64,000 bases of DNA from Candidatus Marinacidobacterales bacterium. Its GTDB lineage: Bacteria; Acidobacteriota; Vicinamibacteria; Marinacidobacterales; DATDRI01. The translations under genes were made by a program, and so were the position numbers. Under the pieces are notes generated by a model. It was not told where the DNA came from. It saw only the letters and a list, made by a program, of their open reading frames with translations, and made no database searches. Below are positions 7,036 to 52,537 of the stretch, piece by piece. Location of the stretch: assembly GCA_965219415.1 (NCBI GenBank), contig CBDCNP010000002.1, positions 4,672,001-4,736,000 on the forward strand, given 5' to 3'. The first letter of the stretch is position 1, and the number at the start of each line of letters is the position of its first letter.

Positions 7036-7175
7036 CCGAGTTTCAGTGAATTTGCTCTGGAAGAACAGGAGAATAGAGATAAGCGAACAGGGGAAATATT
7101 ACGTACAGCACATAACGGGTTCCATTGGAACCATCGCGGGCACAGCTAGCTTTTCGTCAAACTTGGCAGTACCCG

Positions 7176-12246: not shown

Positions 12247-12999
12247 ATGAAACACATCAGACTGGTTGAGGCCTTCGTGCCAAAGAAAGATCGGTCGGAG
12301 GAACTGCGTCGCCAAGTAAACGAGCGCTATGGCGGCGAGGGTTTGACCCTCAGCGTAGGCTACCCAGAAGGGGAACCGGAGTTCGAAACAACGGAATCCG
12401 TCACCGCGCTCAGCCTTTCTGTACCCCAGCTCATCACGGATGCCGTGAAGGCCGAGCGGGAAGGGGTGGATGGAATCGTCGTCAACTGCATGGCCGATCC
12501 CGGCGTGCGGGAGATGCGCGAGAATGTTGCCATCCCGGTGCTCGGGCCCGGCCAAACCTCGATGCATGTGGCCACCTTGGTGGGGCGACGGTTTAGTCTC
12601 CTGGTGACCAGCGAGTTCTCTGCACGTTATTTCGAGGAACAGGCGGAGAAGGTAGGGCTGGGCGCGCGGCTTGCATCCTGCGAAGTAGTTGGTATTCCGC
12701 CCGAGGAGATAGGGGCCGATCCGGGACGAACCACAGCTTTACTGGTCGAAGCGGCCCGGAGAGCGATCTGCGGAGCGAATGCTGACACGCTAGTGCTTTG
12801 CTGCACGGGGTTTGCGTTTCTTGCCGGAGATCTCCGGAAGAAACTAAAGGCCATGAAGTTGAGCGTGCCCCTCGTCGACCCGCTTGCCGTCACCATCCAT
12901 ACACTGGCGGTTCTCCTGGATGCCGGGCTCACCCACAGCCGGATCGCTTATCCCGGTATTCGTGCGTCCCTGGGTACCGTCAAGTTGACGAAAAACTAG
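12247..12999 (+). CDS. Asp/Glu/hydantoin racemase family protein
   Basis: VNCMADPG and LCCTGF two-cysteine motifs; last codons come from an IS6-like end at 12973. Confidence 0.9.
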   Translation: MKHIRLVEAFVPKKDRSEELRRQVNERYGGEGLTLSVGYPEGEPEFETTESVTALSLSVPQLITDAVKAEREGVDGIVVNCMADPGVREMRENVAIPVLGPGQTSMHVATLVGRRFSLLVTSEFSARYFEEQAEKVGLGARLASCEVVGIPPEEIGADPGRTTALLVEAARRAICGANADTLVLCCTGFAFLAGDLRKKLKAMKLSVPLVDPLAVTIHTLAVLLDAGLTHSRIAYPGIRASLGTVKLTKN

Positions 13000-13060
13000 C
13001 TAACCGACCCCGTCCTGTGCGGTGCTTCCGCAATCAAGTGTTGGTGGCTGCCGCGTAACC

Positions 13061-15344: not shown

Positions 15345-15520
15345 TCAGACTGCAAACGTATCTTCGGCCTCAGTGAGGAGCGTCTTGGGTGCTCCGGGCC
15401 ATGATGGAAAATCCGCGCGCGAGGAGCCAATCACTTTGAACGACCTCTTAGGGCCAGTGTTGCTATTGGCTTGACCCCGCGCCGGTCCGACCGGTACGCC
15501 ATCAGTTGGATGGGTATCGT
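15345..15520 (-). ncRNA. Predicted bridge/seek RNA of the IS1111 element (ends approximate)
   Basis: Contains segments matching the target (TAGCAACACT, AAGTG) and the donor junction (TTCCATCAT, AGATACG) in two stem-closed loops. Confidence 0.8.
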
Positions 15521-15573
15521 CGCAGCCTCTTTTGGAAGGGAAAAAGGAAAACACGAAAGTGGAGCCTCTAAAT

Positions 15574-16605
15574 CTAAGCGGCCACCGGCGACTGGAATTC
15601 ACTCTCGCGGGTGGAGACGGCCCAGACGATCCGGGCGAGTTTGTTGGCGACAGCAATCACGGCCTTGTTGTGTCCCCGCGAGCGGTGGACCTTCCGAGCC
15701 CAGGCGCGGAGCTTGTCGGGCGGGCTCTTGCTGACGTTCGCCGCGCGGAGCACGGCGCGCCCGCCCTGGGTGAGGAGCATACGGAGGTAGGAGTCGCCAC
15801 GCTTGGTGATGCGTCCGAGGCGGCGAATGTCGCCACTGGAGTTTTCCTTGGGAACTAGGCCGAGGTAGCTCGAGAAGCGGCGCCCCGATGGGAAGCGGCG
15901 AAGATCGCCGACGAAGCCCACGATGGCGGTCGCGGCCAGAAGTCCGATGCCGGGAATGGCGAGAAGTCGTTGGACTTCAGGAAGCTGCTTGGTGAGCGCC
16001 TTGAGCTCGTGCTCGATGCTAGCGCACTTGTCCTTGAGTTCTCGAATCTCGGAGCAGGCATCACGGAGATGCGAACGGAGCACGTCGGGCAAATCAGAAT
16101 CAGCGTCTTCGACGAGTTCGAAGAGGGCGGGCACGACGAAGTGAGCGCCCTTTGGGATGATGAATCCGAGTTCGCGCAGGAGCCCGCGTACGGCATTGAT
16201 GCGTGCGGTCCGTGTGGAGAGCCATCCTGAGCGCAGGCGATGGAGCGCAGCGAGGGTGTGCTGGTGCACGGACTTGATGGGTACGGGAAGAAGCTCCTCG
16301 TTCCTGTAGGCCTCGAGCAACGCCTTCGTGTCGGCGCGGTCGTTCTTGCTCCCGCGTCGATACGGCCTCACGAGGTGAGGTGGGAGCAGGACGACGTCGT
16401 GTCCCAACCTTCGGAACGTCCTTGCCCAGAAGTGAGCCGAGCCGCAGGCTTCGAGAAGCACGGTGGCAGCGCTCTGTTTGGCAAAGAACGACACCAATTT
16501 GGGTCGACTCACACGGAGTTGCTTGGACACCTTCCCCGCTTCTCCCGAGATGGCAATCTCGAAGACGTTCTTTGCAAGATCCACAGCGATTGTCGTATCT
16601 TTCAT
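15574..16605 (-). CDS. IS110-family (IS1111) recombinase
   Basis: DEDD motifs AVDLAK, LEACG, KNDRAD; C-terminal ENSSG serine; RBS AGGAGG before ATG 16605. Confidence 0.95.
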   Translation of the reverse strand: MKDTTIAVDLAKNVFEIAISGEAGKVSKQLRVSRPKLVSFFAKQSAATVLLEACGSAHFWARTFRRLGHDVVLLPPHLVRPYRRGSKNDRADTKALLEAYRNEELLPVPIKSVHQHTLAALHRLRSGWLSTRTARINAVRGLLRELGFIIPKGAHFVVPALFELVEDADSDLPDVLRSHLRDACSEIRELKDKCASIEHELKALTKQLPEVQRLLAIPGIGLLAATAIVGFVGDLRRFPSGRRFSSYLGLVPKENSSGDIRRLGRITKRGDSYLRMLLTQGGRAVLRAANVSKSPPDKLRAWARKVHRSRGHNKAVIAVANKLARIVWAVSTRESEFQSPVAA

Positions 16606-16706
16606 TCGGACTCCTCCTTTTCGATGCGTATTCGACTGACTTTGGCACATCGATGCCGTCTATGTCAGTGGAGGAGTCCATTCCATCACTTGATGGCGGA
16701 AGCACC

Positions 16707-45358: not shown

Positions 45359-46533
45359 TCAGTTCTTATTGCGAAAATGGATTACCGATTCCGACTTTTC
45401 TCCATCGACAAGCCTAAGTTTCATGTTTGGTCCCTCCATGGTCGTTATTGATCCAGGTGGTAGTCCAAAAAGCTCCTCTTGCAGACTGCACGGAAGGGGG
45501 ATTCGCTTGCGGAGGACGTTCGCTATTTTTGTCGGGCCGCCAAGGGCGTCGATTGCTTTAGCGATGAGTTGAGGTTGCTCGGGCGCCAGCTCATCGTCTA
45601 GGGGCTCACGACGCCTGTAACCACGCGCTCCGTAAAGACGCCAAAGTCTAGTATTGTATGCATCGTCGATGAGCCCGAGTTCTCGTAGGCGCATGAGCAT
45701 GGCCCCTATAGAAACACCCCACGTTGGTTTTAACGTCCTTAGGTAATCGAGACTTATCGCATCGACATCATCAAGGAAAGACTCTTCTGGCATTAGAAAT
45801 GCCCCTGCAAATTGAAAAGCCTGGGTTTCCACAAGCTTCAAAGTCTCTGGCTTCCTGAGAAGCGTAGGCGACATATGACGGTGCAGTATCTGATGGCCGA
45901 TCTCATGAGCGGTATCAAAACGTATTCTCGCTGCAACGTTTTTCTCTGTGTTCAAAAGAACAAACGGCCGCGCGGAACACTCAGGCCAGCGAGAGAAAGC
46001 ATCAAGAGCTTCAGACTCCATGAGAAATTGACTAACAACGAATCCCGCCGTCTCAGTGATCCGAACAAGGTTGCCAACCGGCCCATCTTCAATACTCCAG
46101 TGTTCGCGTAGGCTGGTCGCCGCAGACTCGATCATTTCACATGTTATTGACTGAGGGTCATCGGGCAAATCAAATTCTGGGATGTTCACCATGGGAAATT
46201 CGACAAGTTCCTCAAGAAAATCAACAGCCTCTCGCAACCAATCCGCGCGCAACTCGGCTTTGCGTCGGGCGCTCTTCGTCGCCGCGGAGAGCGATCGATA
46301 GAACGTGGGTGCGGTATCAGGTGTAGGCGGGGTACAGGAGAAAAAGCCGATTGGCATAGCCAACCGCAACGAGATTTGCTCAAGCAAATCGGCATCTGGT
46401 GCCAGTTCATCCTTTTCGTACTTAGAGAGCGTGTACCGGCTTATGTTTAGTATCTCAGCAAGTGAGATAATCGTTAGTCCACGCGCCTCGCGGGCTTGAC
46501 GTAAACGTTGTCCCTTGAAGCTGCTTAGGCCCT
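45359..46533 (-). CDS. XRE HTH + ImmA/IrrE metallopeptidase; native start removed by element D
   Basis: RLRQAREARG HTH, RFDTAHEIGH, ETQAFQFAGAFLMP. Confidence 0.88.
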
Positions 46534-47818
46534 TGTGCATCGTCAAAACTGCTCCGCCCACGAAATCAAGGACTTACGCTCCGCTTGAATTCCGGGCCGA
46601 AGACGGCGAAACTCCGCCGCTATGCTCAACGTTGTTGTCTTCCTCGTCTCACTTGGCGTCCGTGCCATTCGGGCGATGTGTCGGCGCCGCGCCGATCTGG
46701 TGTTGGAGAACGTCGCTTTGCGGCAGCAAGTGACGGCGCTGAAGAAAGAGCGCCCACGCCCACCGCTCGACGACACGGAACGGGCTTTCTGGGTTGCCCT
46801 TCGAGGTTCGTGGCCCGTGTGGGCGAGCCGCCTGCTCATCGTCCACGCGGACACCGTAGCCCGTTGGCATCGCGACCGATTCCGACGGTACTGGGCAAAT
46901 ATCTCGCAGCGCCGCCATCCCGGTCGGCCTCGGATTGATGCCGAGATTCGTCGCCTCGTCCGCACGATGGCGCAAGACGGCTGGGGGGCGCCACGCATCC
47001 ATGCTGAGCTCACCAAGCTCGGTTTCATCATCTCCGAGAGCACGGTGTCGCGATATCTGCCGCGGCATCCCGCGGAGCCCGACCAGCTGAAGCGATGGAT
47101 GGCTTTCTTGCGCAACCATAAAGACGATATCGCCGCCATGGATCTGTTCACCGTGCCCACCGCTTCGCTCCGGATGCTGTACGGCTTCTTCGTCATCGAG
47201 CACGGCCGTCGGCACATCGTTCACTTCAACGCCACGTTCCACCCGACGTCTGCTTGGGTTATTCAGCAACTACGCGAGGCGTTTCCCTACGACACCGCTC
47301 CGAAATATCTTATCTTCGATCGCGACTTCATCTTTAGCGCTGGGGTCATCGAGTTCATCAAAGCAACGGGCACAAAGCCCGTTCGCACTTCGTTTCGCAG
47401 CCCATGGCAAAACGGAACCGCGGAGCGGTGGGTCGGCAGCTGCCGTCGCGAGCTCCTTGAGCGCGTCGTGGTTCTCGGTGCATGTCATCTCATCCGGCTC
47501 GTGCGAGCTTACATCAGCTACTATCATGAGGACCGTTGCCACTTGGGGCTGAACAAGGACACACCGAGCTTGAGAACGGTAACGCACCGACCGTCTCCTA
47601 CGGCGAAAGTAGTCGCACTGCCGCGAGTCGGTGGACTGCACCATCGATACGAGTGGCGAGAGGCAGCCTGAGTCAGCTTGGTCGCTCGCGTTACTCGGCT
47701 GGTCGCCGAGAAGTTCGTCCTCAGCACCTTCCCTCGCGCGCTGACCACGCTCTCCAGCATGTGCTCGAGGGCGGTCCGGGCCTAGAGTCCAGTCCCGGAT
47801 TAATAATGATGATGGACA
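46534..47818 (+). mobile_element. Integrase element D, complete copy
   Basis: Same ends and length as 36664-37948; no TSD. Confidence 0.9.
46622..47671 (+). CDS. Integrase-core DDE transposase
   Basis: Near-identical to 36752-37801. Confidence 0.92.
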   Translation: MLNVVVFLVSLGVRAIRAMCRRRADLVLENVALRQQVTALKKERPRPPLDDTERAFWVALRGSWPVWASRLLIVHADTVARWHRDRFRRYWANISQRRHPGRPRIDAEIRRLVRTMAQDGWGAPRIHAELTKLGFIISESTVSRYLPRHPAEPDQLKRWMAFLRNHKDDIAAMDLFTVPTASLRMLYGFFVIEHGRRHIVHFNATFHPTSAWVIQQLREAFPYDTAPKYLIFDRDFIFSAGVIEFIKATGTKPVRTSFRSPWQNGTAERWVGSCRRELLERVVVLGACHLIRLVRAYISYYHEDRCHLGLNKDTPSLRTVTHRPSPTAKVVALPRVGGLHHRYEWREAA

Positions 47819-49023
47819 GGCTTGACTAGAGGAGTCCAGATATGTTGCTACGCGGCTACGGGCAGTGGTTCAGGTGCGGAAGAGACCGGGTTGCGCGCCC
47901 CAGTGAGCAGGAAAACCTCGATCCGGAACCACAAAGGAATTGTCGTCGCCAAGAAGATGTCTCGAAAGGTGAGCCGTCGCGTGGTCAGACCGGCTTGCAT
48001 GGCGGGAGTTCGGATCTCACGTCCGAACTTCAGAGCTCCGTGCGGTCGGACGAAGTTGTAATAGCAACGGAGCAACTCCAGGTGCTCATCGAGCCTCTCC
48101 GTCGAGCGAGCGTGGGAAAGCGTTCGTCTCGAAAGGTATGCCGAGCTTCGCCGGATGGTCAGATTTAACCGCTCGATGAACGACGTGTTCAATGTCGAGG
48201 AGTCCTCGGAGTTATTGAGCGTGTCTTCGAATCGCCGCGGCTCCGTGCAGCGCTCTGCGTTCGACCTTGATGATACGATTGTTCCTGCGCGTTTTGAGGA
48301 CCTGGCCGTAGAGACACGCTGGCCCGAAGAAGCGACGGATGACCTTCTGGTAGAATTCGAATCCATCCGTGACGATCAGGGGAAGACGCTCGAAATTCAT
48401 CCGTCTCGAAAGGTCGCGAAACAGAGCGTGAGTGTTCCGGTAGCTTCGCCTTCCCGTCACCGTCGATGGCCAGAGCCGAGACCAGACTTCGATTGTAACG
48501 AAGACCCAACTCGGTGTCTTCTTGTTGCCCGCGAACGTGCGAATCTCGTCGGCTTGAAGCTCTTCGGCAGCGAAGCCAGCGATCCTTCTGTGATTGAATC
48601 GACGACACACTTGGGCTGCCTTCTCGAGCCAGCGGGCGACGGTGTTCCAGGCAATCCCTTTGATCCGGGAAATCGAGGAAATGCTGACACCCTCGACTCT
48701 GAGAGCGATGACCCCATCGAAAGTAGCTCTTCGATGTTGGAGACGGTAGTAGGGCGTGCCTTTCGTCGAGGAGAACGTCTTTCCGCACTCGCCGCACCGG
48801 TATCGACGGCGTTTCCCGGACCTGGTTCGGTAGAATCCGTGGCGAACGATGTTTCCCGGAACTGACTTTGCCCCGCAACGGACATGCGAGATTGAGACAT
48901 CCGCGATTCTTCACTTCGGCTCGGCCCTGACGATGAGAGAACTGTGTCTTCGGAATTCTGGTTCAAACTCTAGCACGCAGACCGGTTAGGGGCTGGCCGC
49001 CAACACTTAATTGCGGAAGCACC
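47819..49023 (-). mobile_element. Frameshifted IS1-family copy with IS1111 right-end remnant (47819-47842) at the same TIR position
   Basis: Inverted homologue of about 14062-15268. Confidence 0.88.
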
Positions 49024-49500
49024 CCAACACCAACTCGAAATGACCTTCGAGCACATGCCACACCGGCTTCCAATACACTCCGGTCGCTTCCATCGCTACA
49101 ATCGTGCAACCGCTCTGCCCCAGCCAATCCGCCATTTCCAGCAATTCGCTCGTGGCTGTACCGAACACACGCGTCTCGCGTACCACCTTCCGCTTCAACG
49201 CAACCCGCACGCAAGCCGTAATCGATTTCTGGTGGACGTCCAATCCGGCGCATCGCTTATGAACCACTCTCATCGCAGCCTCCTTCACGTCGCACCGGCG
49301 TGGAGCCCACGAACTTGTAATCTAATAGACGCGCTCAACAATCCCAGCTGGATAGAAAACGCAATTTGGGGTACGCGCAGGACTCCCAGCCAAACTTGAC
49401 AACGGGCTCAGTCGCACCAACGTTGAGCCGACCTCTGAGCCGGTGCCACCTACAGAGACTACCGCGTTTCATTCATTCGGGGTGGCCGTCAGGCCGTGAA
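49024..49500 (-). mobile_element. IS110 remnant: left non-coding end plus recombinase N-terminus
   Basis: CAGLDVHQK..VAMEATGVYWKP, cut by the IS1 end; upstream non-coding region carries a 10-nt match to its flank. Confidence 0.85.
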
Positions 49501-49504
49501 AAAC

Positions 49505-49533
49505 TTGACAGTACCATTAGCAAAGAAGATAAT
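49505..49533 (+). promoter_or_regulatory. Possible hybrid promoter for the TonB receptor
   Basis: TTGACA inside an IS6-like end, 17 bp spacer, GATAAT. Confidence 0.5.
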
Positions 49534-49585
49534 CCGAAGGTTTCTAGTGCTGACTAACACTGCCCCGAATATAAGGAGGACGAAC

Positions 49586-52537
49586 ATGAGATCGAAAGAT
49601 CATGCGATCTTGGGGACCACTTCTTTAGTCTTATTCCTATATTTGAGTCTTCTGGCGGTTCCAGCGTCCGCGCAGGTTGGAGAAACCAGTATCACCGGAA
49701 CGATCGCTGATGGGACTGGAGCTGTTCTACCGGGGGTGACCGTTACCGCAACCTTCGCGGCGATGAATGTCGTTCGCACCACGGTCTCCGGCGCCGATGG
49801 GAGGTATCGCTTTAACAATCTTCCGGTCGGCAGGTGGAGTTTCGACTTCACGCTGGATGGCTTCGACTCCACCAAGCTCGAGAACTTTGAGCTCAATGTG
49901 GGTCAAAGCCCTACGATCAACATCACGATGCAGGTGGCTGGAGTCGCGGAGACCATTACCGTGCAAGCCGAGACGCCGGTCATCGAGACGACTCGGTCCG
50001 AGCTCTCACACACGATCCAAGACATCCAGGTCGAGGAGCTCCCGCTCCTCGGCAGGAACTGGCTGGACCTCGCGGTTCTGGCAGCGGGCGTGAAGTCCGA
50101 TGGCGGCTCGGCGGACGACGCTCCCACTGCGGGCATCGGTGTGGGTCGCCAGGACAAGGTCCTCATCGATGGATCGGACGTCAACAACCGCTCCACACAC
50201 CGGACGGTCGACATCAAGCTTTCCAGGGAGTCCATCGCCGAGTTCGAGATCAAGACCAACCAGTTCGACGCCCAGCTCGGCCAGAGCGGCACGTCGGTGA
50301 CCCAGGCGGTCACGAAATCGGGAACCGATGCTTTCCACGGAAGCGGCTTTTACTACCGCCGCGACGGTGACTGGGCAGCCGCGGACTTCTTCACCGGGAC
50401 AAAGAACTCAGATTTCTCGAACACGCAGGTTGGCGGCACGATCGGTGGCCCGATTCTGGAGGGAAAAGCCTTCTTCTTCTTCAGCTACGAGTGGCAGGAC
50501 ACGCCGCAAACCTGCTCCTCCAATACAGGAATCGCCGGAATCGACTCGCAGGAGGTCGGCTGTGGGGACAATCGAAATCTCTGGTTCATCCGAGGCGACG
50601 TCACGATCAACGAGAACCACCGCACTGCGTTTCGCTACAACCGAACGACACGCATACAGCCTTTCGCCCGCACCGGCGGGAGCACGCCACCGGGCGGCGC
50701 GCTCGACTACGACTTCTCGTTCAACCGCTTCAACTGGTCCTTGAACTCGGTGTTCGGCGGCAACGTCGTGAACCGCTTCATCTACAACTACCTCGACACC
50801 AACCGCTTGTTCGGCAAGGTGGGCGACGAGATCATCGGCCCCTCGGTCAGCCCGAAGCTCACCACCGCCGGTCCGAGCCATCAGTTTCCGAGCGCCATCC
50901 TGGGTGGGACCCGAGGCGGTGGTTTCGAGAACCCCGACTATTGGTCCATCCGCGATGACGTCTCCACCTTCTTCGAGAAGGGCGGGGATCACAATCTGAA
51001 GTTCGGTGGCTATCTGGAGCGGGCGCAGCTACAGGGCTTCTTCCTCTTCCAGACCAACGGGGTCTACTTCTTCGACCAAGACCCGGCCAACATCCAAGAG
51101 TGTTGCAACTCCGTGAACTGGACGGAGTGGGATACCTCTCAGTTCCCGATCCCGCTTCGATACTCCGCCAACCTGGGTCAGCCCGAGATCTTGACCCCCC
51201 AAAACGTCTACTCGGCCTATGTCCAGGACGATTGGACCATGAACGAAAAGCTCACGCTGAACCTGGGGTTGCGATGGGACTTGGAGACCGGCTCTATGTT
51301 CAATGACGAGCCGGACCTCCTACTCCAAGAGCAGTTCGGTAACGACTTGAACAACTTCCAGCCGCGGCTCGGCGTCGCCTTCGACACCGGAGGGAACGGA
51401 AAAACGGTCGTTCGAGGCGGGCTCGGGAGGTTCCACTCACAGGCCTTCTTGAACATTGCGCTCTTCGTCCAGCGCTCCAATCGACCTCAAGAGATCAACG
51501 TCACCGTCACCAACGATGACATGGACCCCAGGTTCTACGAAGATCCTCTAGGCGGGCGAGGGTTCGAAGACTTCGCGGGCCAGATCGGATCGATTCCGTT
51601 CGACGTTTCTATTTTTGCCCCCGGCTCGGTGATCCCGAGCCTCTGGTCGTTCACCGGTGGCGTGGCGCACCAGATTACGCCTTCGATGGCTCTCGAGGTC
51701 GACTACATCCACCAGAGGACCGACGATCAGTACCGCTCGGTGGATACCAACCTCTTCCCGAATGCCAATGGCACCGGGAACCTCCCAGTCAACGACGGGT
51801 TCTTTCCCGAGCTCGGCGGTCACGTGACCGGTGTCGGGCGCCCGGACCCGCGCTGGGCGGTCGTCCGGAGCTTCGTGAACGAGGGCACCGCCCGCTACAA
51901 CGCCCTTTCGGTGTCTCTCCAGAAGCGATTCCAGAACAACTACTCCCTCGGCTTTACCTATCTGCTATCGAAGAACCAAGACAACTTCAACGATGTCTTC
52001 GACTATCCCAGTAATATGTTCGACCTCGCCGACGAGTACGGCACTTCGCTCCACGATCAGAGACACCGCATGACGGCGAACTGGGTGTGGGTATTGCCGT
52101 ACGAGTTCGTCTTCAGCGGCCTAATGTACACCGCGTCGGGAATCGCGAGGCCGACGGTGGCCAATGGACAGGATCTCTTCGGTATCGCTCCCGAGCAGCG
52201 CGGTCTGAGCCCGCGACCAACCTGTGGACTCGATCCGCAGTTCGACGGCGCGTGCAGTGTCCTGGGGATCGCCGATGGGACGCGCGTGCCTCGAAATGCG
52301 TTTCGTAGCGACAGCGTCTTCCGACTCGACGTCCGCCTCGGCTGGCGTGGTTACATCTCCGAAGGCGTCTTCGTCGAGCCGACCCTTGAGGTCTTCAACC
52401 TGTTCAACCGGCAAAACAACGACCCCCGCCGCTTCAACACGAACCTGGCGAGCGGCGGCTTTAGCGCACCTGGTCGATCGACCAACCTGCCCTACTTGCC
52501 GCGTACGCTTCAACTCGGTGTAATCCTGCGTTTCTAG
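49586..52537 (+). CDS. TonB-dependent receptor with carboxypeptidase-like regulatory domain
   Basis: RBS AGGAGG, signal peptide, GAVLPGVTV, TKSGT..FHG, YVQDDW, QPRLG, terminal F. Confidence 0.93.
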   Translation: MRSKDHAILGTTSLVLFLYLSLLAVPASAQVGETSITGTIADGTGAVLPGVTVTATFAAMNVVRTTVSGADGRYRFNNLPVGRWSFDFTLDGFDSTKLENFELNVGQSPTINITMQVAGVAETITVQAETPVIETTRSELSHTIQDIQVEELPLLGRNWLDLAVLAAGVKSDGGSADDAPTAGIGVGRQDKVLIDGSDVNNRSTHRTVDIKLSRESIAEFEIKTNQFDAQLGQSGTSVTQAVTKSGTDAFHGSGFYYRRDGDWAAADFFTGTKNSDFSNTQVGGTIGGPILEGKAFFFFSYEWQDTPQTCSSNTGIAGIDSQEVGCGDNRNLWFIRGDVTINENHRTAFRYNRTTRIQPFARTGGSTPPGGALDYDFSFNRFNWSLNSVFGGNVVNRFIYNYLDTNRLFGKVGDEIIGPSVSPKLTTAGPSHQFPSAILGGTRGGGFENPDYWSIRDDVSTFFEKGGDHNLKFGGYLERAQLQGFFLFQTNGVYFFDQDPANIQECCNSVNWTEWDTSQFPIPLRYSANLGQPEILTPQNVYSAYVQDDWTMNEKLTLNLGLRWDLETGSMFNDEPDLLLQEQFGNDLNNFQPRLGVAFDTGGNGKTVVRGGLGRFHSQAFLNIALFVQRSNRPQEINVTVTNDDMDPRFYEDPLGGRGFEDFAGQIGSIPFDVSIFAPGSVIPSLWSFTGGVAHQITPSMALEVDYIHQRTDDQYRSVDTNLFPNANGTGNLPVNDGFFPELGGHVTGVGRPDPRWAVVRSFVNEGTARYNALSVSLQKRFQNNYSLGFTYLLSKNQDNFNDVFDYPSNMFDLADEYGTSLHDQRHRMTANWVWVLPYEFVFSGLMYTASGIARPTVANGQDLFGIAPEQRGLSPRPTCGLDPQFDGACSVLGIADGTRVPRNAFRSDSVFRLDVRLGWRGYISEGVFVEPTLEVFNLFNRQNNDPRRFNTNLASGGFSAPGRSTNLPYLPRTLQLGVILRF

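What the first reader, a model, noticed from the sequence alone, without database searches (positions are those of the whole stretch)
49290..49535. Second IS110 whose guide matches an IS6-like terminal repeat that also supplies a -35 box
Seen: AAACTTGACA occurs both inside the IS110 left non-coding end (49392-49401) and at its outer flank (49501-49510). The flank reads GGTACTGTCAAGTTT on the minus strand, and related ends occur uninterrupted at 7146-7173 and 12973-13000. The surviving 15 bp place TTGACA 17 bp from GATAAT upstream of the TonB receptor. Known: IS6-family TIRs carry outward-facing -35 boxes. Inference: a second, unrelated bridge recombinase also targets another IS's TIR, so TIR targeting recurs here, and the leftover end may drive the receptor gene.
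Basis: partly seen in the sequence, partly recalled or inferred. Interest (0 to 1): 0.7.

Follow-up and report, generated by a model that had tools for sequence, protein, structure and literature searches.

The report
Bridge-RNA insertion sequence lodged in IS6 end
A broken copy of an RNA-guided (IS110-type) jumping gene sits inside the end of another jumping gene (IS6 type) because its guide RNA spells out that end, and the 12 bases left over offer a possible, untested promoter for the neighbouring outer-membrane receptor gene.

Summary
AAACTTGACA occurs twice in the window (expected 0.06).

**The guide.** The inner copy (49393-49401, minus strand TGTCAAGTT) lies at the left-target-guide position of a bridge RNA in the left end of a truncated IS110-family element (49024-49503).
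- In 59 of 78 related loci, the 9-mer at that aligned position equals the element's own left junction. Foreign 9-mers do so in 1 of 2496 tests.
- It is unpaired inside a loop closed by helices that covary.
- A second segment, CTCAAC, complements the target's right half, GTTGAG.

**The target.** It is the tip GGTACTGTCAAG^TTGASG shared by an 806-bp IS6-family element and small derivatives. In this genome, 19 of 20 occupied junctions carry the GG tip.

**Prior knowledge.** RNA-guided targeting, and IS1111-type elements that target transposon ends, are already known. New here are the IS6 target, the lineage (Acidobacteriota), and a guide order opposite to IS621 although the guide region lies upstream of the recombinase gene.

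**The promoter.** TTGACA-17-GATAAT is a good consensus match, and this receptor copy lacks its relatives' conserved leader. No transcript data cover it, so it remains a hypothesis.

The parts
49024..49503 (-). Truncated copy of a 1482-bp IS110-family element: complete left end (49289-49503) plus the first 93 codons of the recombinase (49288-49007 ORF; homology to full copies stops at about 49024).
   Evidence: 99% identical over 493 nt to full copy A, G000:C3:4303133-4304614. PF01548 E 7e-9. The full copy matches NF033542 at 2e-83 and carries PF01548 plus PF02371.
49393..49401 (-). Left target guide (LTG), TGTCAAGTT: five bases of the left target, the AG core and the first two bases of the element's own left end.
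   Evidence: Aligned 9-mer after the conserved GAGCCCGT. It equals the element's own left junction in 59 of 78 loci and in 29 of 33 classes; foreign 9-mers do so in 1 of 2496 tests. It is unpaired at columns 140-148, between helices P3 and P2.
49422..49427 (-). Candidate right target guide (RTG), CTCAAC, complementary to GTTGAG (core G plus right target TTGAG).
   Evidence: In orthologues the segment before TGGTGC complements the right flank: mean run 2.42 against 1.39 +/- 0.14 for permuted pairs, 0 of 5000 permutations as high. Right flanks of this element read TTGA in 10 of 12 distinct non-tandem junctions.
49322..49329 (-). Left donor guide (LDG), TCTATTAG, matching the element's right end ...CTTATTAG.
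   Evidence: The aligned segment matches the element's own right end over 6-8 nt in 28 of 29 representatives and changes along with it.
49292..49447 (-). Core of the predicted bridge RNA, enclosed by outer helix P1 (49439-49447 pairs with 49292-49299).
   Evidence: RNAalifold on 30 left ends. 97.8% of cells paired, 16 of 30 pairs with compensatory changes, 0 of 500 shuffles as high, and slid controls 33-45% paired.
49504..49515 (-). Leftover tip (GGTACTGTCAAG) of an IS6-family-type terminal inverted repeat, into which the IS110 inserted.
   Evidence: The same tip heads an 806-bp IS6-family element and 119-120-bp miniature elements. In copy m3 the repeat resumes after the IS110 right end. 19 of 20 occupied junctions have the GG tip.
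49505..49533 (+). Candidate hybrid promoter: TTGACA (from the repeat tip), 17 nt, then GATAAT (flank).
   Evidence: 11 of 12 consensus matches and the only site in 49250-49700; shuffles give a mean of 0.3. Function was not tested.
49586..52537 (+). TonB-dependent-receptor-like outer-membrane protein gene (983 aa from the ATG at 49586).
   Evidence: PF25183 1.5e-78, PF13620 1e-19, PF00593 weak. Homology to paralogues and orthologues starts only at 49561.
47800..49023 (-). High-copy insertion sequence ending in GGTGCTTCCGC..., which cuts off the IS110. The left limit is approximate.
   Evidence: The end motif lies at 49023-49013. Each 300-nt tile has about 45-57 genome copies of 200 nt or more. 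There are more than 60 matches to the terminal 24-26 nt.

Best explanation
Positions 49024-49503 (minus strand) hold a dead copy of a 1482-bp IS110-family, bridge-RNA-guided insertion sequence.

Shown by comparison:
- Its left end encodes a structured RNA of about 156 nt.
- One unpaired strand of that RNA (TGTCAAGTT, 49401-49393) has the sequence of the left half of the target plus the AG core and the element's first two bases.
- A second unpaired strand (CTCAAC) is complementary to the right half of the target.
- Together they specify TGTCAAG^TTGAG. In this genome that sequence is found above all in the tips of IS6-family terminal repeats (GGTAC-TGTCAAGTTGASG) and their miniature derivatives, so the element lands 12 bp inside those tips.
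- In the window, the recombinase gene and everything beyond it, including the rest of the IS6-type host, were later replaced by a high-copy insertion sequence.
- What remains is the left end and a 12-bp repeat tip next to a receptor gene.

Inferred by analogy with IS621 and ISEc21: the RNA pairs with both DNA strands and the DEDD/Ser recombinase exchanges strands at the AG core.

Inferred and untested (my odds about 0.35): the tip's outward TTGACA, 17 nt from a flanking GATAAT, now serves as the promoter of the receptor gene.
For: **Observation.** The repeat is beyond chance.

**Boundaries.**
- 16 left junctions share GGTACTGTCAAGTTTT after unrelated flanks.
- The right end ...CTTATTAG is followed by TTGA(G/C)G..., which in m3 and L008 continues the repeat seen uninterrupted elsewhere.

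**Target guide.**
- 59 of 78 loci and 29 of 33 guide classes match their own junction 9 of 9, against 1 of 2496 foreign pairings.
- The core variant CT in L017 changes in both the guide and the junction.

**Structure.** 30 pairs in 7 helices, 97.8% paired, 16 pairs with compensatory changes, 0 of 500 shuffles as high; the guide lies in the loop between P3 and P2.

**Right target guide.** Permutation test gave 0 of 5000 as high.

**Donor guide.** It matches the right end in 28 of 29 representatives.

**Host element.**
- An 806-bp element in 7 copies, with transposase NF033587 at 4e-63 and PF13610 at 1e-37.
- GG tips and a CTGT motif, as PMC7986276 describes for IS6 repeats (passages read).

**Site census.** Of 85 TGTCAAGTT sites, 10 are internal guides, 20 are occupied (19 with a GG tip) and 55 are empty.

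**Promoter.**
Against: - A single-sequence fold of the left end is no better than shuffles (z -0.24). The structure rests on comparison only.
- No Rfam family matches, even at E 10.
- The right-guide signal is short: mean run 2.42, and only 4 of 27 classes reach 4 or more.
- I could not find the right donor guide.
- The AG crossover for this element is inferred from orthologues, because donor and target share AGTT.
- The window copy cannot move: its recombinase is truncated. Full copy A has Lys in place of the DEDD Glu, and only copy B looks intact.
- Promoter: one -10-like hexamer among about 57 repeat tips is close to what chance allows. I estimate 0.2 expected, giving P of about 0.17, worked out by hand from the base composition and the counts.
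- The 45 nt between the tip and the conserved part of the leader are of unknown origin.
- No RNA evidence exists.
Confidence: 0.85

Rival explanations
1. GGTACTGTCAAG is the IS110's own terminal sequence, and the inner copy is a donor guide rather than a target guide.
For: Every copy in this genome, including the 155-bp miniature ones, begins with this sequence after unrelated flanks.
Against: The same tip, followed by TTGACG..., bounds 7 copies of an 806-bp IS6-family element and 119-120-bp miniature elements with no IS110 sequence. After the IS110 right end the repeat resumes (m3; L008, L088). In a related genome the element sits after CACAACTGTCAAG and ATTTTGTGTCAAG, with no GGTAC. In orthologues the 9-mer changes with the flank while the element ends stay conserved.
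Confidence: 0.03
2. The receptor gene is transcribed from some other start, for example an ECF-sigma-type promoter in 49516-49585 or a start inside the IS110 left end, or it is silent. On this reading TTGACA-17-GATAAT is a chance match.
For: One good -10 among about 57 tips is near chance. Promoter rules for this phylum were not tested here. TonB-dependent receptor genes are often under alternative sigma factors (general knowledge, recalled). RNA contigs cover parts of the gene body but not its 5' end, which says nothing either way.
Against: It is the only sigma-70-like site in 450 bp, with 11 of 12 matches. It sits 52 nt upstream of a strong AAGGAGG/ATG. The conserved leader that holds the relatives' TTGACT box is missing from this copy. 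Hybrid promoters are described as a general property of IS6 elements (PMC7986276, passage).
Confidence: 0.55
3. The 10-base repeat is a coincidence of two unrelated sequences.
For: It is short, and 30 copies of the 9-mer are expected genome-wide by composition.
Against: Expected 0.06 in the window. The same positional relation holds in 59 of 78 orthologous loci with 29 different 9-mers.
Confidence: 0.01

Closest known systems
IS621 and its bridge RNA (IS110 family; PMC11208160, PMC11208158; passages read)
   Same: It has a DEDD plus Tnp recombinase and a guide region upstream of the gene. Two loops read the target and the donor. The left guides have the sequence of the top strand (they pair with the bottom strand) and include the core. 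There are no terminal inverted repeats. Insertion is site-specific.
   Different: The recombinase is only distantly related (E 8e-10, C-terminal domain only). The core is AG, not CT. [quoted passage not shown] One outer helix encloses both domains. The 9-mer guide runs two bases into the element's own left end, so it equals the integrated junction.
IS1111-family seekRNA elements ISEc11, ISKpn4 and ISPa11, and the IS110-type ISEc21 (PMC11187229; passages read)
   Same: Short segments match both strands of the target. The order 'top-strand complement first, bottom-strand match second' is the order reported for IS1111 members. Guides are naturally re-programmed among relatives.
   Different: Here the guide region is upstream of the recombinase gene, and no subterminal inverted repeat of 6 nt or more was found. 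Both are IS110-type traits. The paper reports the opposite order for its one IS110-type example.
[quoted passage not shown]
   Same: An element of this superfamily inserts at a fixed position inside the terminal repeat of another mobile element.
   Different: The target family differs (IS6-type tips), as do the host phylum and the element subgroup. I did not read that paper.
IS26 / IS257 / IS6100 hybrid promoters (PMC7986276; passages read)
   Same: An outward -35 box in the IS6-type terminal repeat is paired with a -10 in the flank.
   Different: Only 12 bp of the repeat remain here and the rest of the element is gone. The -35 is a perfect TTGACA. No expression data exist.

Membership tests
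IS110 family (RNA-guided DEDD recombinase elements) | N-terminal DEDD (RuvC-like) domain | tested here: met
   PF01548: window fragment E 7e-9; full copy E 1e-26. NF033542 2e-83, 280 bits against a cut-off of 140.
IS110 family (RNA-guided DEDD recombinase elements) | C-terminal Tnp domain (Transposase_20) | tested here: met
   PF02371 E 1e-23 in full copy A. The window copy lacks this domain because it is truncated at about 49024.
IS110 family (RNA-guided DEDD recombinase elements) | Non-coding end encoding an RNA with segments that match the target and the donor | tested here: met
   Target guide: 59 of 78 loci. Donor guide: 28 of 29 representatives. Right target guide: permutation 0 of 5000. 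Covarying helices. Whether the RNA is made was not tested.
IS110 family (RNA-guided DEDD recombinase elements) | No terminal inverted repeats; insertion at a specific sequence | tested here: met
   No inverted match of 6 nt or more between the first and last 70 nt. All junctions lie at TGTCAAG^TT.
IS110 family (RNA-guided DEDD recombinase elements) | Circular intermediate with abutted ends | not testable with these tools
   Needs PCR or reads from a culture. Tandem right-end/left-end junctions in orthologues are insertions, not circles.
IS1111 subgroup | Subterminal inverted repeats of 11-13 bp and a guide region downstream of the recombinase gene | tested here: not met
   No such repeat. About 230 nt lie upstream of the gene, and only about 40 nt (RE ...TTATTAG about 40 nt after the stop codon) downstream of the stop codon.
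IS6 family (the host element of the target) | IS6-type DDE transposase | tested here: met
   234-aa ORF of the 806-bp element: NF033587 4e-63 (212.7 bits, cut-off 125) and PF13610 1e-37.
IS6 family (the host element of the target) | Short related terminal repeats with GG tips and cTGTt / caaa motifs; length about 0.8 kb | tested here: met
   Ends GGTATTGTCAAGTTGACG and GGTATTGTCAAATTGAGC; 806 bp. The motifs are as described in PMC7986276. The 12-bp remnant in the window cannot be assigned to the full element rather than to one of its miniature relatives.
IS6 family (the host element of the target) | 8-bp target duplications | tested here: inconclusive
   No copy has matching flanks on both sides. 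Copies b1 (left) and b4 (right) share GCTTGAAG, as expected after recombination between two copies.
Sigma-70-type hybrid promoter | -35 and -10 hexamers at 16-18 nt spacing, upstream of the gene, on the right strand | tested here: met
   TTGACA-17-GATAAT, 11 of 12 matches.
Sigma-70-type hybrid promoter | A transcript starting 6-9 nt after the -10 | not testable with these tools
   The four RNA runs are held as contigs, and none covers 49516-49888.

The most novel reading that the evidence does not exclude
This element represents a distinct, widespread sub-architecture of bridge-RNA recombinases, found in Acidobacteriota, Planctomycetota and proteobacterial MAGs. The guide region lies upstream of the gene, as in IS110, but the guides follow the IS1111 order: the top-strand guide, a small hairpin, then the bottom-strand guide. 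Both domains sit under one closing helix, and the left guide reads across the future junction. The clade has been naturally re-programmed to at least 29 different targets. It spawns guide-less elements of about 155 bp that must be moved in trans. In this genome it lives on the tips of IS6-family elements. One such event left an outward -35 box that now drives a receptor gene which had lost its own leader.
Probability: 0.3. Interest if true: 0.6.

Novelty: new variant of a known kind. Interest (0 to 1): 0.5.

Why it matters
Bridge and seek RNAs are being developed as programmable recombinases, and natural diversity sets the design rules. This clade gives a ready-made comparative data set:
- 33 guide classes, each with its own junctions.
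- A different loop order from IS621.
- An AG core.
- Evidence that about 66 nt of the left end plus about 85 nt of the right end suffice in cis, from the miniature copies.

Biologically, it shows one family of mobile elements using another family's ends as a landing pad in an insertion-sequence-rich environmental Acidobacteriota genome. Each landing interrupts the IS6 terminal repeat 12 bp from its tip, which should block use of that end (an inference), while leaving its outward -35 box in place. If the promoter reading holds, the locus shows two successive mobile-element events rewiring the expression of a nutrient-uptake receptor.

Tried and rejected
- **Rfam:** no family at gathering score over the whole window, nor at E up to 10 over 49200-49560.
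- **Single-sequence fold of the left end:** z -0.24, uninformative.
- **RNA evidence:** of 23 listed runs, 4 are RNA. Laid as contigs, X20 covers 49250-49342 and 49436-49515, but the latter runs on into a different flank, so it comes from another copy. X19 and X21 cover parts of the receptor body from 49889 onward. X22 gave nothing. No contig covers 49516-49888, so there is no information on a start site or on expression of this locus.
- **Native promoter of the receptor:** I looked for it elsewhere in the window and genome using the paralogue's 400-nt upstream region. Only the last 31 nt match the window, at 49561-49591.
- **Right donor guide:** no segment complementary to the left-end start stood out. 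Left open.
- **Subterminal inverted repeats:** none of 6 nt or more.
- **First crossover assignment:** I first placed the crossover after AAGTT, with TT or GTT as the core. I dropped this after seeing orthologue right ends stop at TAG with varied flanks.
- **Earlier notes of this scan:** nothing for this genome or sequence. One note on another genome was found.
- **Literature:** full-text searches for an IS110-type element that targets IS6-family ends listed no such paper. The term 'IS6' also matched 'IS621', so one search was not specific.
- **Supplements:** they are closed, so the target tables of PMC11208160 and PMC11187229 may already list this clade or this guide order.

Full report
**Observation.**
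- AAACTTGACA occurs at 49392-49401 and 49501-49510 and nowhere else in the 64-kb window. The expected count is 0.06, and 0 of 100 shuffles reach two matches.
- On the minus strand the outer copy is part of GGTACTGTCAAGTT (49515-49502). One-mismatch relatives lie at 7173-7160 and 12973-12986.
- The minus-strand ORF 49288-49007 is the first 93 residues of a DEDD IS110 transposase (PF01548, E 7e-9).
- TTGACA (49505-49510), 17 nt and GATAAT (49528-49533) precede AAGGAGG and the ATG at 49586 of a 983-aa TonB-dependent-receptor-like protein (PF25183 1.5e-78, PF13620 1e-19).

**The element and its limits.**
- The window is G000:C3:4672001-4736000.
- The genome holds two full copies of this element: A at C3:4303133 and B at C3:4292121, 96% identical. 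It also holds several truncated copies and four miniature copies of 155-164 bp that keep about 66 nt of the left end and about 85 nt of the right end.
- All 16 left junctions examined read GG(T/C)(A/G)(C/T)TGTCAAGTTTT after unrelated DNA.
- The right end reads ...GAGTTTCTTATTAG, followed by TTGA(G/C)G....
- In miniature copy m3 the sequence after the right end, TTGACGAAAAGCTAGTTGACCGACC, continues the repeat that stands uninterrupted at window 12973-13000. The element therefore sits inside that repeat.
- In the window, homology to copy A stops at about 49024, where the end (GGTGCTTCCGC...) of a 50-copy insertion sequence begins. No other piece of the IS110 is in the window, so its 3' two thirds and the remainder of its host element were lost.

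**The host of the target.**
- GGNNNTGTCAAGTT occurs 45 times in the genome; 18 of these sites are followed by the IS110 left end.
- The empty sites head several repeat families.
  - One is an 806-bp element in seven copies, with ends GGTATTGTCAAGTTGACG and GGTATTGTCAAATTGAGC. Its 234-aa transposase matches NF033587 'IS6 family transposase' at 4e-63 (212.7 bits, cut-off 125) and PF13610 at 1e-37.
  - Others are 119-120-bp miniature elements with the same tips.
- GG tips and a CTGT motif are what PMC7986276 describes for IS6-family repeats (passages read).
- A census of all 85 TGTCAAGTT sites gives 10 guide copies inside IS110 left ends, 20 occupied junctions (19 with the GG tip), 32 empty sites followed by GASR or GGYG, and 23 empty sites with other continuations.
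- In a related genome the same element also sits after CACAACTGTCAAG and ATTTTGTGTCAAG. The guide-matched bases define the site, not the repeat as such.

**Is the inner copy a guide?**
- A search of species-representative genomes with the copy A recombinase returned 80 loci. Four are 96% identical; the rest are 58-65% identical and come from Acidobacteriota (mostly Vicinamibacterales), Planctomycetota, Gemmatimonadota and proteobacterial MAGs.
- Their left ends share a frame, GAGCCCGT-[9 nt]-(T/G)GGACC.
- The 9-mer differs between lineages (33 classes). An exact copy lies 80-140 nt upstream, at the element's left junction, in 59 of 78 loci and in 29 of 33 classes. Two of the four failing classes are mis-hits of my pattern.
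- 9-mers taken from other classes are found there in 1 of 2496 tests.
- In multi-copy lineages the non-exact cases still match 6-8 of 9.
- The window's 49401-49393 is this 9-mer.

**Where the crossover lies.**
- In multi-copy orthologues the right end stops at ...TAG and the flanks diverge immediately, while the left junction always reads ...AG-TT.
- The core is therefore AG, and the element begins with TT.
- The 9-mer consists of five bases of left target, the AG core and the element's first two bases. That is the integrated left junction.
- Where those last two bases are not TT (L018 CC, L020 GT, L041 TC), the right flank does not start with them, so they are donor-derived.
- For the element studied here, donor and target share AGTT, so the assignment is by homology. 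On that basis the surviving repeat tip is 12 bp (49504-49515), not 15.

**Structure.**
- An alignment of 30 left ends gives a consensus fold of 30 pairs in 7 helices.
- 97.8% of cells are paired and 16 pairs show compensatory changes. 0 of 500 shuffles reach the observed value on any measure, and slid controls give 33-45% paired.
- An outer helix P1 encloses two domains.
  - In the first, helix P2 (GGUC/GACC) closes a loop. Its 5' strand is a variable segment ending before UGGUGC. A small hairpin P3 follows, and the 3' strand is the 9-mer guide.
  - In the second, helix P4 closes a domain whose 3' strand carries N5-TAG-A. This matches the element's own right end over 6-8 nt in 28 of 29 representatives and varies with it. 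It is a left donor guide.
- The inner repeat therefore lies inside the target loop.

**The second target strand.**
- The variable 5' strand is complementary to the core G plus the right flank. The mean contiguous run is 2.42 over 27 guide classes, against 1.39 +/- 0.14 for permuted pairings, and 0 of 5000 permutations are as high.
  - 56 of 69 loci were used. 13 were dropped by a crude filter for right flanks that look like another copy's left end, and that filter also removed copy A.
- The signal is long in L015 (8), L013 (6) and L019 (6) and short in most other classes.
- In this element the segment reads CTCAAC (49427-49422), complementary to GTTGAG. 10 of 12 distinct non-tandem right flanks begin TTGA.
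- A second allele, CTTAAC, exists, and one miniature copy has the right flank TTAAG.
- Together the two strands specify TGTCAAG^TTGAG, which is positions 6-17 of the IS6-type tip.

**Comparison with what is known.**
- PMC11187229 states that IS1111 members have the top-strand complement first and that the IS110-type ISEc21 has the reverse. It also states that the guide region is upstream in IS110 types and downstream in IS1111 types, which carry subterminal repeats (passages).
- The present clade has an upstream guide region and no inverted repeat of 6 nt or more between its ends, but it has the top-strand-first order.
- Its recombinase is only remotely similar to IS621 and ISCro4 (E 8e-10 and 5e-7, C-terminal domain).
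- Elements of this superfamily that insert into another transposon's terminal repeat are known: IS4321 and IS5075 target Tn21-family repeats. I saw this only as a reference title.
- The mechanism and the habit are therefore known. The IS6 target, the lineage and the loop order are the new points.

**The promoter idea.**
- TTGACA-17-GATAAT is the only sigma-70-like site in 49250-49700, with 11 of 12 matches; shuffles give a mean of 0.3.
- Two in-genome paralogues and two same-genus orthologues of the receptor share a leader of about 170 nt with a TTGACT box and GTGTACACCGTGTACCAT. The window copy is homologous only from 49561 onward, and 49516-49600 is unique in the genome.
- The gene has thus lost its relatives' upstream region, and the hybrid site is the best candidate start signal.
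- Against this, only this one of about 57 repeat tips has a good -10 at the right spacing. My hand estimate from base composition gives about 0.2 expected, so chance is not excluded.
- RNA contigs do not cover the site.
- Hybrid promoters are described as a general property of IS6 elements (PMC7986276).
- I put the promoter at about 0.35.

**Activity.**
- The window copy is dead as a transposon but keeps a complete left end, 99% identical to copy A.
- Copy A has Lys in place of the Glu in AMEATGVYW. Copy B keeps the Glu and a full frame.
- The miniature copies lack the whole RNA core, so they would need the RNA and the enzyme in trans.

**Verdict.** The guide and IS6-end reading is well supported, at about 0.85. 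The promoter is plausible but untested. The claim that TIR targeting 'recurs' for the other IS110 type in the window is in doubt.

Noticed in passing
G000:C3:3521492-3521647, 4618555-4618709, 4370254-4370100, 4602933-4603096 (loci L003-L006); also many in related genomes G014, G018, G026, G034: Miniature derivatives (155-164 bp) of this IS110 keep about 66 nt of the left end and about 85 nt of the right end and lack the whole guide-RNA core. They sit at the same target sequence, so they were presumably moved in trans.
   Followed up: partly
window 15400-16706 (minus strand) and 28 other copies in the genome: The other IS110 type (358-361 aa) starts with GGTGCTTCCGCCATCAAGTGATGG after unrelated flanks in 29 of 29 copies. 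It has an imperfect inverted copy (CCATCCAACTGATGGCGTACCGG) near its other end. This looks like an IS1111-style subterminal repeat of its own. The abundant pairs of GGTGCTT(C/G)CGC ends about 155 bp apart may be its derivatives rather than an independent element that it targets.
   Followed up: partly
L035, L038, L046, L052, L053, L056, L060, L071, L073 (right flanks): In 9 of 68 orthologous loci the right end is followed directly by the left end of another copy or of a sibling element (TT-NN-CCACCCGG). Some guides, such as TCTGTAGTT and TTCTTAGTT, spell sibling right ends. These elements pile into one another in tandem arrays.
   Followed up: no
G000:C3:3101431 (copy b1) and C3:4761719 (copy b4): The 8 bp GCTTGAAG flank the left side of one IS6-family copy and the right side of another, 1.66 Mb away in opposite orientation. 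This is the signature of an inversion or other rearrangement between two copies.
   Followed up: no
window 49586-49615: The receptor's 5' end reads ATGAGATCG-AAAGATCATGCGATC-TTGGGG, where relatives read AAGATCATGAGA... directly after the ribosome-binding site. This looks like a 15-nt in-frame duplication of the start region, adding five residues to the signal peptide's N-terminus.
   Followed up: no
G000:C3:4131805-4132205, C1:2062103-2062301, L108, L109: The relatives of the receptor gene share a conserved leader with an inverted-repeat-like GTGTACACCGTGTACC about 80 nt upstream of the start. It may be an operator.
   Followed up: no
L001:729-1979 (copy A) against L002 (copy B): Full copy A carries Lys instead of the conserved Glu in AMEATGVYW (the DEDD Glu by position). 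Copy B and the 96%-identical copies in a related MAG keep the Glu.
   Followed up: no
window 46540-47800: An insertion sequence of about 65 copies, with a 349-aa rve_3 / HTH_21 transposase (46622-47671), abuts the element that truncates the IS110. The whole 44.8-49.5 kb stretch is a stack of insertion sequences around one unique HTH / M78-peptidase gene (45359-46561).
   Followed up: no
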